From a virus, in the IMG/VR virus record IMGVR_UViG_3300025570_000007: a stretch of DNA of 64,000 bases; one strand, written 5' to 3'. The notes beneath the pieces were generated by a model, which was not told the origin of the DNA, made no database searches, and saw nothing but the letters and a program-made list of their open reading frames with translations. Numbering within the stretch: the first letter of the stretch is position 1; every line of letters starts with the position of its first letter. Positions 4,428-61,905 of this stretch are shown here, piece after piece. The position numbers were made by a program, and so were the translations under genes.

Positions 4428-5059
4428 AGTTATAAGTTTTCTTTACTTATTAAAATCTCTACAATCAACACACATTTCGCTACATTTTGCACCCTCACCA
4501 TAAGTATCTGCATCGTGGCAAATAAACGATTTGCTAACACTACCTATACGTAATTGCTTTATTTCTGCTTCTAAAGAATCTATGTATAACTCTTGGTCTG
4601 CTATCAATTGTATTTTTGTAGCCTTATTAATATAATCTTTTCTATCAGGTCTTTTCATCAAAGATTGTCTTACTCCTCAAGGTCTATGGCGACCCAGAAA
4701 ATTGCCATAAAGATCGCTATACATGTAAATATCGAGCTTGTCGCTCTAGCTGTTTCTGACCATAATAAAGGATTAATTTCCAGGGTTATGAATGCCGAAG
4801 TAGCGTATATTGCTACTATTGCTAATAATGCTATTAAGAATGTCTTCATAAGCTTCCTTTTAATTTACTTATCTGAATTTGAGTATCTAGAATACCTTCC
4901 TCTTGGTCAATTATGCTCATTTCCAACATTCCTAATGCGTAGGCTTGTATCATATAACTCTGCATTTCAGGTTCGAGATTTCTAAATCCTAATTCTTCTA
5001 GGTTTTGTGTAGCTATTTGGGTTCTCTCTTCGTCTGTAATTGTCATGGTCTTCTATCTA

Positions 5060-5332: not shown

Positions 5333-5686
5333 TTTGTTAATTTATTTAAATAGTTTTTAATTGTTTCTAAATATACGAAATATATTTTAAATATCAAAGT
5401 GCTAAGTGTTAAAGTCTTATATTAATCAATATCTAATATTCCGGTTACTTCTGCTAATGGTACAACTACCACCACATCCTTTAATTCCATTCTGCTAAAA
5501 ATAATGCGTACATTAGTCCTACTATTATTATGACATCCCCAAGTACGCAGCTGATTACATATGCTCCCATTAGTAGCTTCCTCCATGGTGGAGATTGTTC
5601 ATAATACTCTACAGGATTTTCTACTTGAGGCCCTAAGCCTATGAAGTTTATGAATCCCATAAGTGCGAAAAATATTGCTAGTCTTA

Positions 5687-52743: not shown

Positions 52744-54288
52744 TTAAATTTCTATAGCTTCAATTGCTTTGATTACAGCTCTTGGATCTATTTCAACTCT
52801 TTTTACTAGCTCATACATTTCTGATGAGTATCCAGCTAACTGGTAAAGTTTTTGAGTTGTTGGCTTAAACATTGTAGTTGAATATCCACAGATGTTTATT
52901 GAATATACGTGCATCTTGTTATAGTTGCTTGGTGAAATGTACGAAGCTCCTTGCATATCCGAGATAATAAAGATTCTGTCGTACTTATTCCCAATCGTAC
53001 TAAAAATACCATTAAACTCAGTTCCATACCCTACAGTTCCCTGTAATTTTCTAAACTGATTTTTAATAGTATTTATACTATCTAAAGGATTGAACTTAAT
53101 TGCAGCGACACTACTAGCGAAGTGGTATACATCGGCGTTAATCCCTTTACCTAAAGTTGCAGCTACTAAAGCAGCTTTTTCAATAGCAGATTTACTACCA
53201 GGTTTCCCATTTGCTAATCTGATCGATGATCCCATTGATCCTGAACTATCAAAGATAACTGCAGTTTTACCTGCTGGAAATAGTGATGTTAGGTTCGGAA
53301 TCGCAAGTTCGTAAGCTTTATCTAGTGCTGTAATGAATGGTAACGCTTTTGACGCTCCTATATCCTGTAGTAACACTTCTAATGCTAAATCGATTTGGTG
53401 AGGGAATACTAGAGATTTTCTAATAGTTGCTTCATCTGTTAAGATAGCAATTGCTCCGTCAATCAATTCTTTATTTGAACTAGTTTGTAAGATATTACGT
53501 AAGTTACGTAGTAACGCTAAATACCCTATTTTTTTAGTTGCAATTAATTCAGCATAATTTGATTCCTTAGCTTGTGTTAACTCTACCTTAGCTTCCGCTT
53601 TAGTAATAGTACCTTCTTTTACTTTCTTAGCAACATCTTGTCCAGCTGATGTATTCTTATCTTCAACAGTGTTGAATTGCTTTAACTCTCCAGTCATTAA
53701 CTGTTTGAAAGTTTTTTGCATATCTTCACTTGGTTTTGGACGAACTAAGTTTACAATATCAACTAAGGAAACATCTTTATTCTTTCCTTGGTATTTTGCT
53801 AACTCGTAAGTATCAGCAGCCTCTAAAGCAGCTTTAAATCCTTTCTTCATTGCGTTTGGCAATGGTTTTCCGGGATTGAAGTGTTGATAACAAGCTACTA
53901 TTTCTAGTAAGTCATCTAACCTAAACACGATACCTCCTGTTTTAAATTTCTTACTTCTCTTTGAGAAGAATTTACGTGCAATTCCTCTACCTGATAGGTA
54001 AGGTGCTAATGCTACTGCTCCAAACTGGGTAACACTTCTTTGGCCCATTACAGATCTAGCATATACTAGTGCTTTAGCTACGAATTCAGGTTCTTTTTGA
54101 GCTAACTTTACGATAAGCTCTTTGAATCTAACTTCTCTGTCTGATAATTTCTCGTAATAAGTATTATCAAAACCTGTTGCTAAAATAGCAACTAATTCAT
54201 GTTTTGGATCTAATTTGTAACCTTCACCTCCTTGGTGGTTTGTTACTGTAGGTGTTGCAGTCTTTTTGTTTTTGTTGTAAACTGACAT
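52744..54288 (-). CDS. rsr: TROVE-domain Ro60/Rsr RNA-binding protein
   Basis: NHQGGEGY, YQ/YE-LAKY, ALLRNLRN, vWA DSSGSM and ISDMQ motifs. Confidence 0.92.
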   Translation of the reverse strand: MSVYNKNKKTATPTVTNHQGGEGYKLDPKHELVAILATGFDNTYYEKLSDREVRFKELIVKLAQKEPEFVAKALVYARSVMGQRSVTQFGAVALAPYLSGRGIARKFFSKRSKKFKTGGIVFRLDDLLEIVACYQHFNPGKPLPNAMKKGFKAALEAADTYELAKYQGKNKDVSLVDIVNLVRPKPSEDMQKTFKQLMTGELKQFNTVEDKNTSAGQDVAKKVKEGTITKAEAKVELTQAKESNYAELIATKKIGYLALLRNLRNILQTSSNKELIDGAIAILTDEATIRKSLVFPHQIDLALEVLLQDIGASKALPFITALDKAYELAIPNLTSLFPAGKTAVIFDSSGSMGSSIRLANGKPGSKSAIEKAALVAATLGKGINADVYHFASSVAAIKFNPLDSINTIKNQFRKLQGTVGYGTEFNGIFSTIGNKYDRIFIISDMQGASYISPSNYNKMHVYSINICGYSTTMFKPTTQKLYQLAGYSSEMYELVKRVEIDPRAVIKAIEAIEI

Positions 54289-54845: not shown

Positions 54846-54968
54846 TTGTATTTCAATGAACTTTATAGATATTTCTATCTTATAGTATAGAGATAAGTTT
54901 TTTAGTCTTATCTAGCAACTCTATTCTACTTTAATTTGAAAAAAGATTTTCTATTGGATAATATACTG

Positions 54969-55040
54969 TGTCCCCAGCAGGATTTGAACCTGCGACCAAT
55001 TCGTTATGAGCGAACCACTCTACCGCTGAGTTATAAGGAC
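54969..55040 (-). tRNA. tRNA-Met/Ile2 (CAT)
   Basis: cloverleaf; loop CUCAUAA. Confidence 0.9.
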
Positions 55041-55158
55041 ATTATTAAAGAGAGTTTCGGGTCTTTCAAGGTTACTTCCCTATAGCGAGGCTAACCTTTA
55101 CCTATATCGCCAGCTGTTATGAAGCTTCACTACTCTCCTTAATGGTTTTTAAAATTAG

Positions 55159-55229
55159 AAGCGGTCGTGGGACTCGAACCCAACCGTAGGGTTATGAGCC
55201 CTGCATGCTACCAGTTACAACACCCCGCG
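55159..55229 (-). tRNA. tRNA-fMet-like (CAT), imperfect acceptor stem
   Basis: GGG/CCC anticodon stem, C1 mismatch; two extra acceptor mismatches. Confidence 0.7.
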
Positions 55230-55255
55230 ATGTTACTTTCTATTAAACTAATTAG

Positions 55256-55328
55256 CGGTCCACATGGGGGTCGAACCCACAATCTTCGCCGTGACAGGGC
55301 GACATGTTACCAACAACACTTCTGAACC
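55256..55328 (-). tRNA. tRNA-Asp (GTC)
   Basis: loop CUGUCAC. Confidence 0.85.
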
Positions 55329-55471
55329 GGTTACCTTTACATTCCAAAGGTTAAGCAGGTTTCGTTAATGGACTTTCCTTCCTTGTTTAGACTATCTGTT
55401 TTTACGCCTATATTTCAAAACTGGACTTGTTATCTAATATTCACTTAAGTAGTCATCTTAAGTTAGTTTTG

Positions 55472-55544
55472 TGGAGCCAATGGGATTCGAACCCACATCC
55501 TTTTCGTTGCAAACGAAATGCTCAGCCAGTTGAGCTATGACCCC
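55472..55544 (-). tRNA. tRNA-Ala (TGC)
   Basis: loop UUUGCAA; G3:U70. Confidence 0.92.
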
Positions 55545-55626
55545 TAGTAAAAGTAGTTAATATGACGTTTGCTCAAGTTATGGTTGACTGCTCAGCCGTA
55601 CTTTAACGGTTCTTTAACTACTTTAG

Positions 55627-55698
55627 TACTGCCGAAGGGTTTCGATCCCTCTTTTACACCGTGAAAGGGTGGTGTCCTAGCCAGTAGACGACGGCAGC
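55627..55698 (-). tRNA. tRNA-Glu (TTC)
   Basis: loop CUUUCAC. Confidence 0.88.
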
Positions 55699-55804
55699 AT
55701 TTAAATAGTAGGTAAGCTCCACATTTTCACTTACCTAACTTAGCGACCTCTATGGTTGTGAATCCATTTTAAAGGGGTTCCTCGGTTCTAAGTTTACTAT
55801 TTAG

Positions 55805-55877
55805 AGCGGATGATGGGATTCGAACCCACAACATTTAGCTTGGAAGGCTAAGACTCTACCAGTTGAGCTACATCCGC
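55805..55877 (-). tRNA. tRNA-Gly (TCC)
   Basis: loop CUUCCAA. Confidence 0.92.
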
Positions 55878-55882
55878 ACTTT

Positions 55883-56128
55883 CTATTTCCTGTATGCTGC
55901 TTTTATATCTTCAACACTAAACCAATCATATTCTTTCAAATCAGAAAGAAACCAGTGACATTTATAATCAAAGATATTATAACTTGGAAATACTTTTCTG
56001 TAAGAATTACCGTCAGCGATTTTGTGAGGGTATCTTCTTACTGCTTTACTTGCCATCCTTTTAGCGTGTGGAGTATAGTTTCTGCTATAATCTGATACGA
56101 CAGGATGTTTCTTTTTACTTCTGCTCAT
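55883..56128 (-). CDS. small basic hypothetical protein
   Basis: 81-aa ORF between tRNAs. Confidence 0.65.
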   Translation of the reverse strand: MSRSKKKHPVVSDYSRNYTPHAKRMASKAVRRYPHKIADGNSYRKVFPSYNIFDYKCHWFLSDLKEYDWFSVEDIKAAYRK

Positions 56129-56200
56129 TGTTTTCTAGTTTAACGATTAACGTAACTAGAATACAGAGTTTTTAAATTTAGTCATAGTGTTTACTTTTTG

Positions 56201-56273
56201 AGCCTCTAACCGGGATCGAACCGATGACAATCACGTTACAAATGTGATGCTCTACCAACTGAGCTATAGAGGC
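56201..56273 (-). tRNA. tRNA-Thr (TGT)
   Basis: loop UUUGUAA. Confidence 0.92.
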
Positions 56274-56405
56274 AATTAAATTAGAATAGCGCTTGAATGC
56301 CTTTTAAGTTCTCCATCAACCTCTAACTTTTATTAAAAATAACTTGTGTTATTCAACAATATTAATTTCAACTGTTTCTAGCTACACAATAGTTATTTTC
56401 TTTTG

Positions 56406-56480
56406 TACCTGAGAAGGGATTCGAACCCTCATGACCTAGAACCTAAATCTAGTGCGTAATGCCATTTCCGCCACTCAGGC
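56406..56480 (-). tRNA. tRNA-Leu (TAG), short variable loop
   Basis: CUAGA-UUUAGGU-UCUAG. Confidence 0.82.
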
Positions 56481-56510: not shown

Positions 56511-56752
56511 CACTACTATTATACCATAAATATACGAAGTTCTACTTTACCTACAAACTTTTTCTACTTATTTCTAATTATTTCTTCAATAATAGTGTAC
56601 CTGCTAGGGTAACTTGCAATAACATCTGTTTGGGACAAAAAAGTTATTCTTCCTTTATTTACTATATATGAATCTGCTATTATTTCTTTATAGAACTTAG
56701 CTGATGGCATATTAATATATAATTTATACTTACTCATACTATTTTAATTTAG

Positions 56753-56824
56753 AGGGACATATCGGGATCGAACCGATGTAAATAGTTTTGCAGACTATCA
56801 CCTAAGCCATTCGGCCAATGTCCC
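56753..56824 (-). tRNA. tRNA-Cys (GCA)
   Basis: loop CUGCAAA; U73. Confidence 0.9.
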
Positions 56825-56948
56825 TTAGGTTCTTCTTCTACTATTTTTTCTGTTGTTGCGTTCATTGTAACTGATTTTTAAATTAATCTTTTAACTGTTA
56901 TTGAGACCTAAATATAATGATTAGATCTCAATTAACCAACTTTCTTGT

Positions 56949-57500
56949 TTAGAAAAGTAAATAAGGTTTCCACTCTTCCGGAATGTATGTTGTCTTCTTT
57001 AGTAACATTAAATAGTGTGGACGTTGTGGTTTTGGTATATTTTTTGTATACTCTTCTACCATTAGATCCGCTTTTTCCCCATTACATTTCTTACAAGCTG
57101 TTACTAGATTATCCCATGCGTTTGGTCCTCCTTTTGATTGAGGAATAACGTGATCTAACGTAAGTAACTTTTTTGTAGTCTGTCCACAATATACACACTC
57201 GAAATTATCTCTTTTATAGATATTCTCTCTTGTTAGTGGTACCTTTTGAAAGTTAAGTTTCACATAAGTGAATACTCTAATAATTGATGGTTTATTAATC
57301 TCTAAATTTGGATTAACAACACCGAATGTCTCTGGGTATTCTGCTATAATGTCTGCATTACCTTTAAAAGAGATTACGAAAGCTCTTTCAGTAGTGATAA
57401 TGCTTCTAGGAATATAGCTAGAATCGACTACCAGAGTTTTACTGTAGCGATTTTTCATAATTTCTACTTTTTGGGTTAATGAAACATTTTCTTTTTCCAT
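56949..57500 (-). CDS. HNH endonuclease
   Basis: RDNFECVYCG, TLDHVIPQSKGG, NLVTACKKCN..K. Confidence 0.9.
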   Translation of the reverse strand: MEKENVSLTQKVEIMKNRYSKTLVVDSSYIPRSIITTERAFVISFKGNADIIAEYPETFGVVNPNLEINKPSIIRVFTYVKLNFQKVPLTRENIYKRDNFECVYCGQTTKKLLTLDHVIPQSKGGPNAWDNLVTACKKCNGEKADLMVEEYTKNIPKPQRPHYLMLLKKTTYIPEEWKPYLLF

Positions 57501-57556
57501 ATGCTAAAGATCGCATATAATTATAACTCTACCAACTAAATTAGTAGTTTTCTTTG

Positions 57557-57629
57557 CACGCCTGGAAGGAATCGAACCTTCAACCTTTAGTTTTGGAGAC
57601 TACTGCTCTACCGATTGAGCTACAGACGT
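57557..57629 (-). tRNA. tRNA-Trp (CCA)
   Basis: loop CUCCAAA; G73. Confidence 0.9.
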
Positions 57630-57787
57630 ATTTACTATGCCACTAATCTACTCTTAGTCTTCCACTTAACTCTGTAAGCGGTTTTGAAGGCTTTACTACG
57701 TCTTGTATTGGCGTAGCCGATCCTTAGCGATTCTTGGTTTCCCATTAAATTACTCATTGATTTATTATTTAAAAATTTATATTTGAA

Positions 57788-58477
57788 TTAGTAGGCTATT
57801 TTTGCCCAACGTGTCTTTCCGCTCCAGATACTGTCTTTCAGTAGTATGAACGGTTGACCCTTAAGTACTACATCCCCTTTTCTTTGTGATTCTTTTGATT
57901 TTCCTATAACTCCCACTCTTATACTACGAGCAGTTTTCGCTTTCCACAGTATAGTGCTTCCTTCTACAGGCTCTATCAGCAATTCTCCTGTTGATTCCTG
58001 TATCTGTACATACCCTTTTTTGGTTAGTAGCTCTTTAATCTTATTTAAAACCTCTCCATCTTTATCTCCTCTCAATTTAATATAATCGGTGTAAGCTTCC
58101 ACAGTATTTTGGTCTTGTGCATAATCCCATAACTGGTATGTGTTTTTTTCTATCTCTAAGTGTACCTGTCTTAAGGAATCATAAGAGATTTTAATAATCT
58201 CTAATTTTACCTTCTCTCCTTGTAGATTTTCTTCTGAGATTTTTAAATCTTCCACTAAAAGTTCTGCTACATCTTTAAGTTTATTTGTTCTTAGCAGTAG
58301 TTCATTTTTTGCATCTCTTTCTCTTACTACCTCGTGTTTTGTCTCAACTGCATAGAATGCAGTAAGGAAGGAAACTATAACTAGTAACACTACTACGCCC
58401 CAAAGTACATTATTAATTGCCCTACTTTTTCGGGCATTCTTATTTGTTACTGCTATTAACTCCTTAATATTACTCAT
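57788..58477 (-). CDS. membrane-anchored coiled-coil protein
   Basis: single TM followed by heptad repeats. Confidence 0.7.
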   Translation of the reverse strand: MSNIKELIAVTNKNARKSRAINNVLWGVVVLLVIVSFLTAFYAVETKHEVVRERDAKNELLLRTNKLKDVAELLVEDLKISEENLQGEKVKLEIIKISYDSLRQVHLEIEKNTYQLWDYAQDQNTVEAYTDYIKLRGDKDGEVLNKIKELLTKKGYVQIQESTGELLIEPVEGSTILWKAKTARSIRVGVIGKSKESQRKGDVVLKGQPFILLKDSIWSGKTRWAKIAY

Positions 58478-58490
58478 AATTATAAACTAT

Positions 58491-58901
58491 TTATGTGCTG
58501 ATATATAATGCTAAATCACTCTCTACTGCTGTTATATCTTGTTCTGAATTAGGAAGTATCCCGTTTTCAATCCTGTTTACAGTTTTATCGAAGATTCGTA
58601 AGCCGTTTAGTTTCTGCTTTTGTACTTTTACTACGTTAAAGGACTTTGAAGCAAATGCTACCGGAAGTACCTCCCCTACAAACCCTGTTACTGTTCCCAT
58701 ATGTTCCCATAGCCCCTGTAATTTTGTAAGGAGTTCTGGCTTAAGTACGAAGAGAAGTCCAACAGCTACTGCAAGTACTATACCAACTATTATATAGGTA
58801 CGGGCTAATTTAATACGTGATTCTAAATCCTCTTTATAGAACTCGATATCATCTTTTAAATCTTCTATTAGTATTTTCTGCGCTTTTGACAGTTCTTCCA
58901 T
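58491..58901 (-). CDS. membrane protein
   Basis: one or two hydrophobic helices. Confidence 0.7.
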   Translation of the reverse strand: MEELSKAQKILIEDLKDDIEFYKEDLESRIKLARTYIIVGIVLAVAVGLLFVLKPELLTKLQGLWEHMGTVTGFVGEVLPVAFASKSFNVVKVQKQKLNGLRIFDKTVNRIENGILPNSEQDITAVESDLALYIST

Positions 58902-58925
58902 AATAATAAATAGTTTGGAATATTG

Positions 58926-58998
58926 TACCCCTCCTAGGATTCGAACCTAAAGTCGCCTCTTTAGAAGAGAGGTGCTTTTCCATTTAAGCTACAGGGGC
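58926..58998 (-). tRNA. tRNA-Arg (TCT)
   Basis: loop CUUCUAA. Confidence 0.9.
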
Positions 58999-58999
58999 A

Positions 59000-59215
59000 G
59001 ATACCTAGTTTTCGTACTAGGTAAACGTGAATCCGTGCTCCCTTAGAAACACCTAAATTCAACAGCTGCTAGGCTGCTAATGCAAAGTTGTCGTTTGCGT
59101 AAATACTAATCTACTATCATCCACGTTTTCCATTGTCAAAACCAGTCGGCCCCATGGTCTTAAAAGTCTCATAGTGGAGCCGGAGAGTATCGAACTCTCG
59201 TCCAACGAAATGTCA
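59000..59215 (-). ncRNA. ssrA: permuted two-piece tmRNA, tag ANDNFALAA
   Basis: acceptor piece GGACGAGAGUUCGAUACUCUCCGGCUCCA precedes GGGGCCGACUGGUUUUGAC; G3:U70; tag ORF 59098..59069; outer ends approximate. Confidence 0.9.
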
Positions 59216-59240
59216 ATAATTATCAACGATTTGTATTTTG

Positions 59241-59314
59241 TACCTCCAGTAAGACTCGAACTTACAGGTCTTAACGTCCGTAGCGTTATGTTTTTCCAGT
59301 TAAACTATGAAGGC
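59241..59314 (-). tRNA. tRNA-Arg (ACG)
   Basis: loop CUACGGA. Confidence 0.9.
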
Positions 59315-59379
59315 AGTTGTAGGATATCGCTTAACCTACTAGATGTGATCAATATCTATTTTTTTATACGATTTTTTTG

Positions 59380-59463
59380 TACCCCTGACAAGATTCGAAC
59401 TTGCAAGCCTCTAAGGCAATAGGGCTTAAACCTATCGTGTATCGCCATTTCCACCACAGGGGC
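59380..59463 (-). tRNA. tRNA-Leu (TAA)
   Basis: loop UUUAAGC; long variable arm. Confidence 0.9.
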
Positions 59464-59521
59464 ATTTGTAATGTCAAAAACTTCCCTAACGGAGGAAAAC
59501 TTCATTACGAGCTTATTTTTG

Positions 59522-59594
59522 GGTGAAAGACGGGGCTCGAACCCGCAATCGCTTGGACCACAACCAAGTGCTTTACCATTCAGCTACAATCACC
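59522..59594 (-). tRNA. tRNA-His (GTG)
   Basis: G-1:C73; loop UUGUGGU. Confidence 0.88.
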
Positions 59595-59606
59595 ATGTTG
59601 CTCTCC

Positions 59607-59933
59607 TTAATACTCTTTATATATTGCTAAATTATTTTCTACTAACCAATCACTAACGTTAACTCCTTCTATATACACTTCAGCTAAGTACCTTCCGTAC
59701 TTACCTTTCTTATCTTTTCGGGTCTTAATAGTAACTTCCTTACCTAGTACTAATTCTCTTAACCTATCTCTTGAAAATTTACCTGCTTCTTTTTCTTCTC
59801 CTCTAACTTCAGGAGCATCAATTCGTAGAATTCTTAACGGTTCTGTAAATGTCATGTTAAATCCTAAATCGATTTGTGCTGTTACAGTATCACCATCGTA
59901 AACTTTAATAATTTTTGCTTTGTAAGTATACAT
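59607..59933 (-). CDS. thermonuclease (SNase-like)
   Basis: VYDGDT, RILRIDAPE, GKYGRYLA. Confidence 0.9.
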   Translation of the reverse strand: MYTYKAKIIKVYDGDTVTAQIDLGFNMTFTEPLRILRIDAPEVRGEEKEAGKFSRDRLRELVLGKEVTIKTRKDKKGKYGRYLAEVYIEGVNVSDWLVENNLAIYKEY

Positions 59934-59956
59934 TATATTGTTTATTATAAATATTG

Positions 59957-60028
59957 TACCGATAGAGAATTTTGAAATCTCGACCTATTCCATATGAAGG
60001 AAGTGCTCTGCCTCTGAGCTATATCGGT
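59957..60028 (-). tRNA. tRNA-Met/Ile2 (CAT)
   Basis: loop UUCAUAU. Confidence 0.82.
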
Positions 60029-60037
60029 ATTATTTTG

Positions 60038-60186
60038 TGAACCATAAGGGACTCGAACCCTATACCTCCCCTCCTTTCCTACTTATAAGATCTATTAAGT
60101 ATTCATAATCAACGGAAATCACCAAGTATGTTATTGAAGTCAAGAACCTTAATCGATACAGCTCTCAGTCTCGCAATATACAGCCC
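60038..60186 (-). ncRNA. tRNA-like RNA with acceptor + T-arm and non-tRNA interior
   Basis: GGGCUGU/AUGGUUC-A acceptor (GU-rich); AGGGUUCGAGUCCCU T-arm. Confidence 0.45.
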
Positions 60187-60197
60187 ATATTTTATAG

Positions 60198-60282
60198 CGG
60201 TAGATATGGGATTCGAACCCATGTAGCTTTTACACCCTACTTGTTTAGCAAACAAGCCTCTTTACCGTTTGAGTAATCTACC
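60198..60282 (-). tRNA. tRNA-Ser (GCT)
   Basis: loop UUGCUAA; long variable arm; G73. Confidence 0.9.
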
Positions 60283-60290
60283 AGTTTTTG

Positions 60291-60362
60291 TCGGCCTAGT
60301 AGGATTTGAACCTACGACTTGCTGTGTATCGGACAGCTACTCTACCGCTGAGTTATAGACCG
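60291..60362 (-). tRNA. tRNA-Ile (GAT), C at position 33
   Basis: GCUGU-CCGAUAC-ACAGC. Confidence 0.85.
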
Positions 60363-60486
60363 TGGTGGGGAAGGTTGGATTTGAACCAACAATGTCAAAT
60401 TTCAAGTTTGATTGTTTACCGAAGTAACTCAATTGTATTACTACCATTTCTGAAGAAAGTCTACGCGAGTTGTTTATTTCTTCCCC
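60363..60486 (-). ncRNA. tRNA/Y-module chimera (anticodon UGA; Y module replaces D-arm)
   Basis: GGGGAAG/CUUCCCC-ACCA acceptor, UCAAA-CUUGAAA-UUUGA, T-arm; permuted module closed by GAAA. Confidence 0.8.
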
Positions 60487-60496
60487 ATTTTTACTG

Positions 60497-60570
60497 CTCC
60501 TTAGGTAGGTCTCGAACCTACGACCTATGCATTAACAGTGCACCGCTCTAACCAACTGAGCTACTAAGGA
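60497..60570 (-). tRNA. tRNA-Asn (GTT)
   Basis: loop CUGUUAA. Confidence 0.92.
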
Positions 60571-60576
60571 ATATAG

Positions 60577-60649
60577 TGGCTATTACCGGGATCGAACCGG
60601 TGACACCTAGATCTTCAATCTAGTGCTCTACCTACTGAGCTAAATAGCC
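60577..60649 (-). tRNA. tRNA-Phe (GAA)
   Basis: loop UUGAAGA. Confidence 0.92.
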
Positions 60650-60758
60650 TGGCTGGGGTTTAGAGATTTTGTTTAATACTCTCTCCGGGGCCACCCCCTT
60701 TAAGTACTTTTTCAACCATTTTTTCCTGTTTCCTTCTTTCGGTTAGGTCTCCGCCTCG

Positions 60759-60829
60759 TGCCGCCAGTAGGAATCGAACCTACCCAGTAGAGTTTTACAG
60801 ACTCGCTCGGCACCTTGCCTGTTGTCGGC
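60759..60829 (-). tRNA. atypical tRNA-Tyr (GTA)
   Basis: GAGU-CUGUAAA-ACUC; shortened D-arm; no long variable arm. Confidence 0.65.
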
Positions 60830-60837
60830 TTTAAAAA

Positions 60838-60970
60838 AATTAAGAGAAAGTTTAGAAGAGCTGTTTTGGTTGCAGATACGGGATTTGAACCCGTCACCTA
60901 TTGATTTGAAGTCAATTGCTCTACCATGTGAGCTAATTTGCGAAGTAACTCTTTCCATTACTACTTAATT
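60838..60970 (-). ncRNA. Y-RNA-like element enclosing a whole tRNA
   Basis: AAUUAAGUAGUAA..AAGAGUUACUUCG / AGCUCUU..UUCUCUUAAUU flanking tRNA 60867-60942. Confidence 0.8.
60867..60942 (-). tRNA. tRNA with UCA anticodon (opal-suppressor-like), encoded CCA
   Basis: AUUGA-CUUCAAA-UCAAU; canonical D and T arms; C1:A72 and A5:C68 mismatches. Confidence 0.8.
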
Positions 60971-60973
60971 TTG

Positions 60974-61048
60974 TACTTCTTATAGGATTCGAACCTATGA
61001 CCTCTTGCGTGTAAAACAAGCGCTCTAAACCAACTGAGCTAAAGAAGT
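60974..61048 (-). tRNA. tRNA-Val (TAC)
   Basis: loop UUUACAC. Confidence 0.92.
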
Positions 61049-61054
61049 ATTTTG

Positions 61055-61128
61055 TGCCCCCGACAGGGATCGAACCTGTGACCTTCGAGTTAAAAGCTCG
61101 CTGCTACTGCCTACTGAGCTACGAGGGC
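61055..61128 (-). tRNA. tRNA-Lys (TTT)
   Basis: loop CUUUUAA. Confidence 0.9.
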
Positions 61129-61181
61129 AAATCCGATTCGTGTTTTTAAAGAGAACCGTATATCGGCGAAAAACTCTATTG

Positions 61182-61254
61182 TCGGGATGACAGGAGTTGA
61201 ACCTGCCGCCTCTTGCTCCCAAAGCAAGCGTCTCACCAACGAGACTACATCCCG
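61182..61254 (-). tRNA. tRNA-Pro (TGG)
   Basis: loop UUUGGGA. Confidence 0.9.
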
Positions 61255-61263
61255 GAATTATTG

Positions 61264-61336
61264 TTTCCCCAGCAGGGCTCGAACCTACACTCTTTGATGC
61301 CAAAAACCAACGTGTTACCAATTACACCATGGGGAA
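61264..61336 (-). tRNA. tRNA-Gln (TTG)
   Basis: loop UUUUGGC. Confidence 0.88.
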
Positions 61337-61457
61337 AGTTGCCCGTCTTTCCGGGCGTCAAACGATTGTTCAAGCGGCGAATGCCACTGCGTGGAAGAAA
61401 CCACAATTAAGAACCTCTACTTACCTACTATCGTTACACAGGCGTTGTTTTATTTTG

Positions 61458-61549
61458 CGGAAGATGGCGGATTCGAACCCCCACATCTGTTACAATACTC
61501 GCTTTTCAAGAGCGCCGCCGCTACCCAGAATCTTTCGGCTTAATCTTCC
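61458..61549 (-). tRNA. tRNA-Ser (TGA), enlarged D-loop
   Basis: CGCU-CUUGAAA-AGCG; long variable arm; G73. Confidence 0.8.
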
Positions 61550-61597
61550 TTGTACGCTACCTCCCTCCCTAAGGAAGGAAGTACCGTTATTTTAATT

Positions 61598-61617
61598 ATC
61601 CAATATGTCAATGATCT
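61598..61617 (-). promoter_or_regulatory. boxA-like antitermination element
   Basis: AGATCATTGACATATTGGAT at head of tRNA operon. Confidence 0.55.
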
Positions 61618-61631
61618 TATACTTTTTTACT

Positions 61632-61670
61632 AAAAAAAAATCCCGAATCTTTATTTGATCCGGGATTTTT
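61632..61670 (-). terminator. intrinsic terminator (candidate attenuator) upstream of tRNA operon
   Basis: AUCCCGGAUC-AAAUAAA-GAUUCGGGAU followed by U-run. Confidence 0.75.
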
Positions 61671-61698
61671 ATATATTGTTATATGTTGTTATATCATA

Positions 61699-61854
61699 TC
61701 AATATCCCGTATCTATTATTAATGGCTGGTTATACTTGCAAATTAAATTACTCGGTACACTAAAGCCATACCATTCCACAATCGAATTTACCCTTTTACT
61801 AAAGGACTGCATCGAGCTGCTTAAAATTGAATGTATGTTACGAATTGTTTTCAT
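61699..61854 (-). CDS. candidate 51-aa leader peptide
   Basis: MKTIRNIHSILSSSMQSFSKRVNSIVEWYGFSVPSNLICKYNQPLIIDTGY*; between promoter and terminator; below ORF-track cutoff. Confidence 0.55.
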   Translation of the reverse strand: MKTIRNIHSILSSSMQSFSKRVNSIVEWYGFSVPSNLICKYNQPLIIDTGY

Positions 61855-61870
61855 TGTTCTTGTTATCTTA

Positions 61871-61905
61871 GATAAATATACGAAGTTTTCCTTTCCTAGC
61901 CAACT
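61871..61905 (-). promoter_or_regulatory. -33/-7 promoter of tRNA operon
   Basis: AGTTG...TTCGTATATTTA. Confidence 0.65.

What the first reader, a model, noticed from the sequence alone, without database searches (positions are those of the whole stretch)
61598..61905. Candidate leader-peptide attenuator controlling the tRNA operon
Seen in order: promoter (61871-61905), a 51-codon ORF (61854..61699) containing 19 of 20 amino acids (no Ala), a strong terminator (61632-61670), a boxA-like site, then the tRNA array. The last codons (ACGGGAUAU) are complementary to the terminator's 5' arm (AUCCCG), giving a possible antiterminator that a terminating ribosome would cover. Inference: stalling anywhere in the leader, for example after host tRNA cleavage, frees the antiterminator and switches on the phage tRNAs, a general sensor of translation failure. 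The leader ends in UGA, the codon read by the operon's UCA tRNA, so feedback is possible but speculative.
Basis: partly seen in the sequence, partly recalled or inferred. Interest (0 to 1): 0.75.

Follow-up and report, generated by a model that had tools for sequence, protein, structure and literature searches.

The report
Ribosome-sensing switch before phage tRNA genes
This phage of Bacteroidota-type hosts puts its block of tRNA genes behind a short "test" gene wired to a switchable transcription stop, so it probably makes these tRNAs only when ribosomes fail to finish the test gene, a known type of switch that I could not find published for tRNA genes.

Summary
Observation confirmed: promoter, 51-codon ORF (61854-61699), terminator (61670-61632), boxA-like site, tRNA array.

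The layout is conserved. I found 86 distinct leaders (48 clusters) ahead of tRNA arrays in related viral contigs and in cultured phages phi38:1 and Panino. The leader's last codons pair with the terminator's 5' arm (median -10.8 vs -5.0 kcal/mol for 70 ordinary terminators, p=8e-12). The pairing co-varies within the homologous family (p=5e-5).

19 of 20 amino acids is unremarkable alone (p=0.16-0.2). Across 13 independent full-array leader clusters it is not (18.8 vs 16.1 expected, p=3e-7). Where arrays are split, each leader matches its own tRNA block.

Best reading: a whiB7-type attenuator, ON unless a ribosome reaches the leader's stop.

Corrections: a second, ungated promoter (56556-56527) serves the distal tRNAs, including Ala. 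UGA feedback is unsupported, because the "UCA tRNA" sits in a Y-RNA-like scaffold. There is no transcript evidence, and host tRNA cleavage as trigger is inference.

This scan noted this class before on other DNA. I found no paper on it.

The parts
61873..61903 (-). Bacteroidota sigmaA-type promoter (TTG, 20 nt, TATATTTA) driving the leader
   Evidence: Motif occurs 7x in the genome, all on the coding strand, each with a TTG 18-20 nt upstream; fit to the Bacteroidota TTG/TAnnTTTG consensus is from my own knowledge
61699..61854 (-). Leader ORF, 51 codons, 19 amino acids (no Ala), stop UGA; A at -3, -6, -12 before the AUG
   Evidence: initiation determinants from PMC6847099; 23-37% identity to 19 homologous leaders; no Pfam or Rfam match
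61701..61713 (-). Antiterminator: last codons of the leader, a near-copy of the terminator 3' arm, pairs with the 5' arm
   Evidence: -11.6 kcal/mol, z=-3.5; predicted pairing probability about 1.0 in the nascent RNA without a ribosome, 0 by construction when the stop region is masked; co-variation in the family
61671..61698 (-). A/U-rich spacer; 33 nt from the stop to the G/C core of the hairpin
   Evidence: Gap mostly 24-39 nt in 48 leader clusters vs a broad 9-51 nt in controls; more than 27 nt lets a terminator work behind a ribosome at the stop in E. coli (PMC4824070)
61632..61670 (-). Intrinsic terminator (14-bp stem, U-run)
61596..61616 (-). boxA-like element ahead of the first tRNA
   Evidence: Exact 21-nt repeat at 56509-56489; a 17-nt pattern from it retrieved many viral tRNA arrays; function inferred, not tested
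56752..61549 (-). Gated proximal block: tRNAs Ser, Gln, Pro, Lys, Val, Tyr, Phe, Asn, Ile, Ser, CAU, His, Leu, Arg, Arg, Trp, Cys, plus permuted tmRNA, SNase-like and HNH genes
   Evidence: Tyr(GUA) at 60829-60758 read from the sequence; same tRNA order in L001, L018, L039, L053, L089, L136, L169
56527..56556 (-). Second promoter of the same type, followed directly by boxA and tRNA-Leu(UAG), with no leader or terminator
54968..56480 (-). Distal block with its own promoter: tRNAs Leu, Thr, Gly, Glu, Ala, Asp and two CAU tRNAs
60845..60965 (-). tRNA-like element with a UCA loop enclosed in a repeated closing stem (motif GAGTTACTTCG); probably a Y-RNA-like RNA rather than a UGA decoder
   Evidence: Motif 6x in the window vs 0.9 expected; homologous inserts carry tcc, ttg, tga or atc loops, or none; closing stem in the fold; TROVE gene at 52744-54288

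Best explanation
The region is a ribosome-coupled transcription attenuator that gates the phage's proximal tRNA block. Host RNA polymerase starts at the promoter and a ribosome translates the 51-codon leader. If it reaches the UGA stop in time, it covers the antiterminator (61713-61701) but is too far back (about 30 nt) to disturb the hairpin, so the terminator forms and transcription stops before the tRNAs. If the ribosome is slowed at any codon upstream, or never starts, the free antiterminator pairs with the terminator's 5' arm before the 3' arm is made, and polymerase reads on into the tRNAs and tmRNA. Because the leader samples nearly every amino acid, loss of almost any charged tRNA (starvation, tRNA damage or cleavage) or a ribosome-blocking stress should switch it on, and the tRNAs made would close a negative feedback loop. 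Shown here: anatomy, conserved and co-varying pairing, spacing, amino-acid completeness across relatives, matching of leaders to their tRNA blocks. Inferred: translation of the leader, kinetic antitermination, the physiological trigger, feedback.
For: Layout recurs in 86 distinct leaders, 48 clusters at 50% identity, selected without reference to pairing. Leader-end/5'-arm duplex: median -10.8 vs -4.95 kcal/mol for 70 gene-end terminators of similar strength from the same loci (p=8e-12); 64% vs 4% beat their own shuffles at p<0.05; swapped leader/arm pairs give -6.8. Within the homologous family, own pairs are -11.0 vs -9.4 permuted (P=5e-5), and -10.2 vs -7.7 for 9 distinct arms (P=3.5e-4). 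In most leaders the duplex ends within about 25 nt upstream of the stop. The upstream leader pairs with the antiterminator less well than shuffles do (median z +0.6, p=0.001), so there is no anti-antiterminator. Thirteen independent full-array leaders have 18.8 distinct amino acids vs 16.1-16.6 under three nulls (Fisher p=3e-7 and 3e-6), and each has exactly one Trp. In 12 of 13 two-leader loci (about 6 independent groups) each leader is enriched for its own block's amino acids (p 2e-7 to 0.011); phi38:1 p=6e-5. Differences are spread almost evenly over codon positions (0.23/0.23/0.26), so the frame and composition matter more than the peptide. Precedent: the M. smegmatis whiB7 uORF has 19 of 20 amino acids, responds to amino-acid and tRNA defects, and in M. 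tuberculosis loss of its start codon raises basal expression (10.1101/2023.06.02.543512).
Against: No transcript ends, reporter or ribosome data; the one RNA run held contigs only and was uninformative. At equilibrium on the full RNA the terminator wins with or without a ribosome, so antitermination must be kinetic, and no pause site was identified. Transcription-translation coupling in Bacteroidota was not tested; one paper reports only 'strong clues' for leader-peptide attenuation in Flavobacterium (PMC9723704). This leader's own 19 of 20 is not significant. In 32 of 83 leaders a further promoter-like site lies between terminator and tRNAs, so there the switch gates only one input; this window has none. 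Loci were collected through TROVE, HNH and boxA searches and share ancestry. Panino's block match was not significant (p=0.085).
Confidence: 0.8

Rival explanations
1. It is an attenuator, but its job is developmental timing rather than stress sensing: it reports ribosome availability or initiation rate during infection (for example early vs late), and the codon content is secondary.
For: No anti-antiterminator, so failure to initiate alone would turn it ON. In many relatives the leader starts from a TATTTATA-type motif (probably a late promoter; inference) while a host-type promoter sits after the terminator.
Against: Timing does not explain amino-acid completeness, the single Trp in every full-array leader, or block-matched composition in split arrays.
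Confidence: 0.1
2. The ORF is an ordinary small gene for a functional peptide, or the template of a small RNA, ended by a constitutive terminator; the tRNAs are made by leak-through or another promoter.
For: Short motifs are conserved in one family; one third of single-base codon differences are synonymous (177 vs 348); downstream promoters exist in 32 of 83 cases.
Against: Ordinary gene-end terminators lack the upstream complement. The pairing co-varies. Unrelated leader sequences share the layout. In this window only 15 nt separate the U-run from boxA, with no promoter motif.
Confidence: 0.06
3. The alternative pairing is real but is switched by a phage or host RNA-binding protein (for example the TROVE/Ro60-like protein or Nus factors at boxA), not by the ribosome.
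For: A TROVE gene and Y-RNA-like repeats lie in the same operon region; a boxA-like site follows the terminator.
Against: The antiterminator is tied to the end of an open frame at a narrow distance, its sequence is not conserved, boxA lies downstream of the terminator, and many leader loci were found without using TROVE.
Confidence: 0.03
4. Chance arrangement of an AT-rich ORF and a terminator.
For: 19 of 20 amino acids alone has P about 0.16-0.2; a 6-bp complement can arise by chance.
Against: Conservation and statistics.
Confidence: 0.01

Closest known systems
whiB7/wblC uORF transcription attenuator of mycobacteria and other Actinobacteria (10.1101/2023.06.02.543512)
   Same: uORF, antiterminator and intrinsic terminator; efficient translation terminates, stalling reads through; the M. 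smegmatis uORF has 19 of 20 amino acids and its composition sets what is sensed; loss of the start codon raises basal expression.
   Different: Gates a transcription factor in a bacterial chromosome and is Ala-enriched. Here it gates tRNA and tmRNA genes of a phage directly, composition follows the tRNA block, and I did not test for or see any sign of sequence relationship.
Leader-peptide attenuators of amino-acid operons (E. coli trpL, hisL, pheL, thrL, multivalent ilvGMEDA, pheM before pheST; own knowledge), with candidates reported in Flavobacterium psychrophilum (PMC9723704)
   Same: Ribosome position on a short leader selects between antiterminator and terminator; leader codons match what the operon supplies.
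   Different: Those have runs of one to three control codons and usually a 1:2 anti-antiterminator. Here there is no control run, nearly all amino acids occur, no 1:2 pairing was detectable, and the output is tRNA.
Anabaena trn operon, a long tRNA array induced by translational stress (PMC8421152; repressor TrcR, PMC10272220, abstract only)
   Same: A long tRNA array switched on when translation is impaired.
   Different: Controlled by a DNA-binding repressor at the promoter; the word 'attenuat' does not occur in PMC8421152; plasmid-borne in a cyanobacterium.
T-box riboswitches (own knowledge)
   Same: Antitermination in response to tRNA status.
   Different: Bind uncharged tRNA directly with no translated leader; no Rfam T-box match here.

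Membership tests
Ribosome-dependent (leader-peptide) transcription attenuator | Short ORF between promoter and regulated genes | tested here: met
   61854-61699 after the promoter, with Bacteroidota-type initiation context; conserved in 48 clusters
Ribosome-dependent (leader-peptide) transcription attenuator | Intrinsic terminator upstream of the regulated genes | tested here: met
   61670-61632
Ribosome-dependent (leader-peptide) transcription attenuator | Mutually exclusive antiterminator within reach of the ribosome | tested here: met
   significant, positioned at the ORF end, co-varying
Ribosome-dependent (leader-peptide) transcription attenuator | Leader codons relate to the regulated function | tested here: met
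   Completeness in full-array leaders and block matching in split arrays; not significant for this leader alone
Ribosome-dependent (leader-peptide) transcription attenuator | Read-through depends on leader translation in vivo | not testable with these tools
   Only contig-level RNA data
Classical trp/his-type attenuator | Run of control codons for one or a few amino acids | tested here: not met
   19 amino acids; Ser (9) and Ile (7) are commonest, but no such run is conserved in homologues
Classical trp/his-type attenuator | Anti-antiterminator (1:2 hairpin) | tested here: not met
   Upstream leader pairs with the antiterminator worse than shuffles, n=37
whiB7/wblC uORF attenuator | Located upstream of whiB7/wblC in Actinobacteria | tested here: not met
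   Upstream of phage tRNA genes; works like it, is not a member
whiB7/wblC uORF attenuator | Broad amino-acid content of the uORF sets what is sensed | tested here: inconclusive
   Composition pattern is alike; response to limitation not testable
T-box riboswitch or other Rfam cis-regulator | Match to an Rfam covariance model | tested here: not met
   No match over 61598-61905 at E<=1
UGA-decoding (suppressor or Sec) tRNA at 60867-60942 | Free-standing tRNA with a conserved UCA anticodon | tested here: not met
   Enclosed in a repeated closing stem; loops vary among homologous elements; UCA seen in only 2 of the leader blocks

The most novel reading that the evidence does not exclude
Bacteroidota phages widely use a translated test gene, tuned to the tRNA set behind it, as a decoding sensor. 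It detects host anti-phage tRNA destruction or starvation and releases replacement tRNAs and tmRNA on demand: an inducible counter-defence loop with no protein regulator.
Probability: 0.5. Interest if true: 0.85.

Novelty: new variant of a known kind. Interest (0 to 1): 0.7.

Why it matters
Why phages carry tRNA arrays is an old open question (codon-bias compensation versus replacement of depleted or cleaved host tRNAs). A switch that makes the tRNAs only when decoding fails argues that they are a conditional repair kit, and it gives a direct read-out of the signal they answer. It would extend leader-peptide attenuation from protein-coding operons to tRNA genes. It can be tested now, because cultured phages carry the same layout (Cellulophaga phi38:1, phi40:1, Calle_1-3; Maribacter phage Panino). 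The roughly 270-nt cassette could also serve as a compact reporter of translation stress in Bacteroidota.

Tried and rejected
Leader peptide as query in viral contigs: no relative by tblastn; no Pfam family; no Rfam family over the cassette. Relatives were reached through neighbours instead (TROVE, boxA, HNH).

RNA evidence: one freshwater metatranscriptome held scattered pieces, many 99% or more alike, but only as contigs, so nothing can be said on ends, strand or level.

Host chromosomes: the single genome scan returned one 104.6-kb contig with the same tRNA array, in a bin whose phylum has 0.5-2 Mb genomes. It is probably a mis-binned phage, and Bacteroidota chromosomes were not surveyed.

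'Ala is missing because tRNA-Ala has its own promoter': the leader has only 6 of 50 T/G/E/A/D residues vs 33% background (p=5e-4). Its two nearest relatives, which also have a second boxA with a promoter-like site, are low too (24/148 vs 114/371, p=6e-4). But the three share ancestry, and L311 has a second promoter-like site plus boxA yet keeps 20 amino acids. I keep this as a possibility only.

UGA/UCA feedback: rejected. Anti-antiterminator: none found. Pair counting on the MAFFT alignment failed on a length slip and the antiterminator was out of register; it was replaced by a permutation test. The phiST BLAST hit was unrelated to tRNAs. Literature searches found no paper on attenuated phage tRNA arrays; the library lacks most subscription papers.

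Full report
Context. The window is bases 1-64000 of a 104,202-bp virus record whose last 30 bases repeat near its end-overlap. Genes are almost all on the - strand and, by my reading of the translations, include GroEL/ES, ribonucleotide reductase and tail sheath/tube-like proteins. The promoter motif (TTG, about 20 nt, TATATTTA) and the A-rich starts point to a Bacteroidota host (inference). An RNA island spans 54.4-61.55 kb: 23 ARAGORN tRNA calls plus Ser, Tyr and a further CAU tRNA found at lower stringency or by eye, a permuted tmRNA, a weak YrlA match, and SNase, HNH and TROVE genes.

Observation. Promoter 61903-61873, ORF 61854-61699 (51 codons, no Ala, UGA), terminator 61670-61632 and boxA-like 61616-61596 are all present. 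The AUG has A at -3, -6 and -12, positive determinants in Flavobacterium (PMC6847099). The last codons are a near-copy of the terminator's 3' arm and pair with its 5' arm at -11.6 kcal/mol (z=-3.5). In a nascent RNA that lacks the 3' arm, this pairing has predicted probability about 1.0 with no ribosome or with a ribosome masked at codons 23, 36 or 43; masking the stop region removes it by construction. On the complete RNA the terminator wins in all cases, so the switch must be kinetic.

Conservation. The peptide finds no relatives directly. Loci fetched through TROVE, the boxA motif and the HNH gene show the same cassette repeatedly. A detector that asked only for a terminator within 700 nt before three or more tRNAs and a 12-80-codon ORF ending shortly upstream gave 86 distinct leaders in 48 clusters, a few of them likely false. 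The stop-to-hairpin gap is mostly 24-39 nt, against a broad 9-51 nt for 70 terminators after ordinary genes. In E. coli a ribosome at a stop more than 27 nt upstream no longer represses a terminator (PMC4824070), which fits. Leader ends pair with their 5' arms at a median -10.8 kcal/mol against -4.95 for controls of similar hairpin strength (p=8e-12); 64% vs 4% beat their own shuffles. Within the window's homologous family (same tRNA order, 23-37% peptide identity) own pairs beat permuted pairs (P=5e-5; 9 distinct arms, P=3.5e-4). About ten more family members with terminators came from metagenomes, nearly all with 20 amino acids. No anti-antiterminator was found: upstream leader sequence pairs with the antiterminator less well than shuffles. 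The default without a ribosome is therefore predicted ON.

What it senses. This leader's 19 of 20 is not significant alone (P=0.16-0.20). Thirteen independent leaders heading arrays of 17 or more amino acids average 18.8 distinct residues against 16.1 (proteome windows), 16.5 (shuffled open frames) and 16.6 (pooled composition); combined p=3e-7 and 3e-6. Every one has exactly one Trp. Differences fall almost equally on the three codon positions, so the peptide sequence is under little constraint while frame and completeness are kept. Where the array is split behind two leaders, each is enriched for the amino acids of its own block in 12 of 13 loci, about six independent groups. Cultured phage phi38:1 shows this clearly (p=6e-5) and Panino weakly (p=0.085). 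The sensor is thus broad because the array is broad. I took the lead for the block-matching test from earlier notes of this scan and tested it here.

First, a second promoter of the same type at 56556-56527 is followed directly by boxA and the Leu-Thr-Gly-Glu-Ala-Asp-CAU block, with no leader, so the switch probably gates mainly Ser through Cys plus tmRNA. The leader is poor in T/G/E/A/D (6 of 50, p=5e-4), as are its two nearest relatives with a similar split, but L311 is a counter-example; the link is unproven. Second, UGA feedback fails. 37 of 39 distinct UGA-ending leaders have no UCA tRNA in their block. The UCA element directly follows the motif GAGTTACTTCG, which occurs 6 times in the window (0.9 expected) and in related loci opens a closing stem around inserts with many different loops; with the TROVE gene nearby it reads as a Y-RNA-like RNA (inference). 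Third, in 32 of 83 leaders another promoter-like site lies after the terminator, so there the switch controls a supplementary input. This window has no such site.

Mechanism and rivals. Most likely (0.8): a ribosome that finishes the leader covers the antiterminator and the terminator fires; any decoding delay or failure to initiate frees it and the tRNAs are made, giving negative feedback. Translation of the leader, polymerase pausing and coupling in the host, and the trigger in nature are inferred, not shown; the only RNA run was contig-level and uninformative. Rivals: an infection-timing device (0.1), a peptide or small-RNA gene with a constitutive terminator (0.06), a protein-switched antiterminator (0.03), chance (0.01).

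Comparison with known systems. It works like the whiB7/wblC uORF attenuator, where the M. smegmatis uORF has 19 of 20 amino acids, composition sets the response and start-codon loss raises basal expression, but it is not a member of that family. It differs from trp/his-type leaders in having no control run and no 1:2 hairpin. Leader-peptide attenuation has been proposed for Flavobacterium amino-acid operons (PMC9723704). The stress-induced Anabaena tRNA array uses a repressor instead. Five literature searches found no attenuated phage tRNA array. This scan has recorded the class on other genomes, both block-matched and twenty-amino-acid forms; those are unchecked AI notes and not independent support. 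No look-alike of this stretch was on record.

Verdict. Real, conserved and statistically well supported as a ribosome-coupled attenuator ahead of phage tRNAs; a new variant of a known kind, apparently unpublished for tRNA genes, and testable in cultured phages. Interest 0.7.

Noticed in passing
window 60951, 60430, 54821, 54670, 54509, 54422 (- strand); L001, L002, L003-L007, L009, L136, L157, L174: Repeated motif GAGTTACTTCG (exact or near) opening a closing stem around variable inserts (tRNA-like, T-arm only, or a small loop), clustered near the TROVE gene; candidate Ro60-partner RNA family with only a weak YrlA hit in Rfam.
   Followed up: partly
window 59028-59273 (-): Permuted tmRNA gene inside the gated block (RF04321 over 59069-59227, 64 bits), so ribosome rescue RNA would be co-induced.
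   Followed up: no
window 52744-54288 and terminators at about 54944 and 54332 (-): TROVE/Ro60-like gene preceded by its own terminator just after the motif repeats; L003-L007 show a similar motif-terminator-TROVE layout without tRNAs. Possible separate regulation.
   Followed up: no
window 61561-61583 (-): A 9-bp purine/pyrimidine hairpin between boxA and the first tRNA; role unknown, perhaps a processing site.
   Followed up: no
window 55160-55228 and 60758-60829 (-): An initiator-like CAU tRNA and a Tyr(GUA) tRNA missed by ARAGORN at default settings.
   Followed up: partly
genome-wide, - strand; leaders in L018, L039, L136 and others: A second motif TATTTATA occurs 19 times on the - strand (9 on +), several near structural genes, and precedes many relatives' leaders; candidate late promoter.
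   Followed up: no
leader stops across 48 clusters: UGA ends 18 of 48 leaders vs 15 of 99 genes in this genome; perhaps slower termination keeps the ribosome on the antiterminator. Untested.
   Followed up: no
L133:4036-4170 and L133:about 5500-5680 (phi38:1); L312:3877-4030 and L312:about 4750-5040 (Panino): Cultured phages each carry two leader-terminator cassettes ahead of tRNA blocks, partly annotated as hypothetical proteins.
   Followed up: yes
L041: Two tandem leader-terminator cassettes rich in Ser, Lys, Phe, His and Trp ahead of one tRNA block for those amino acids.
   Followed up: no
L188 / G006 contig 55: A 104.6-kb contig with a syntenic tRNA array and leader sits in a bin from a small-genome phylum; probably a mis-binned phage.
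   Followed up: partly
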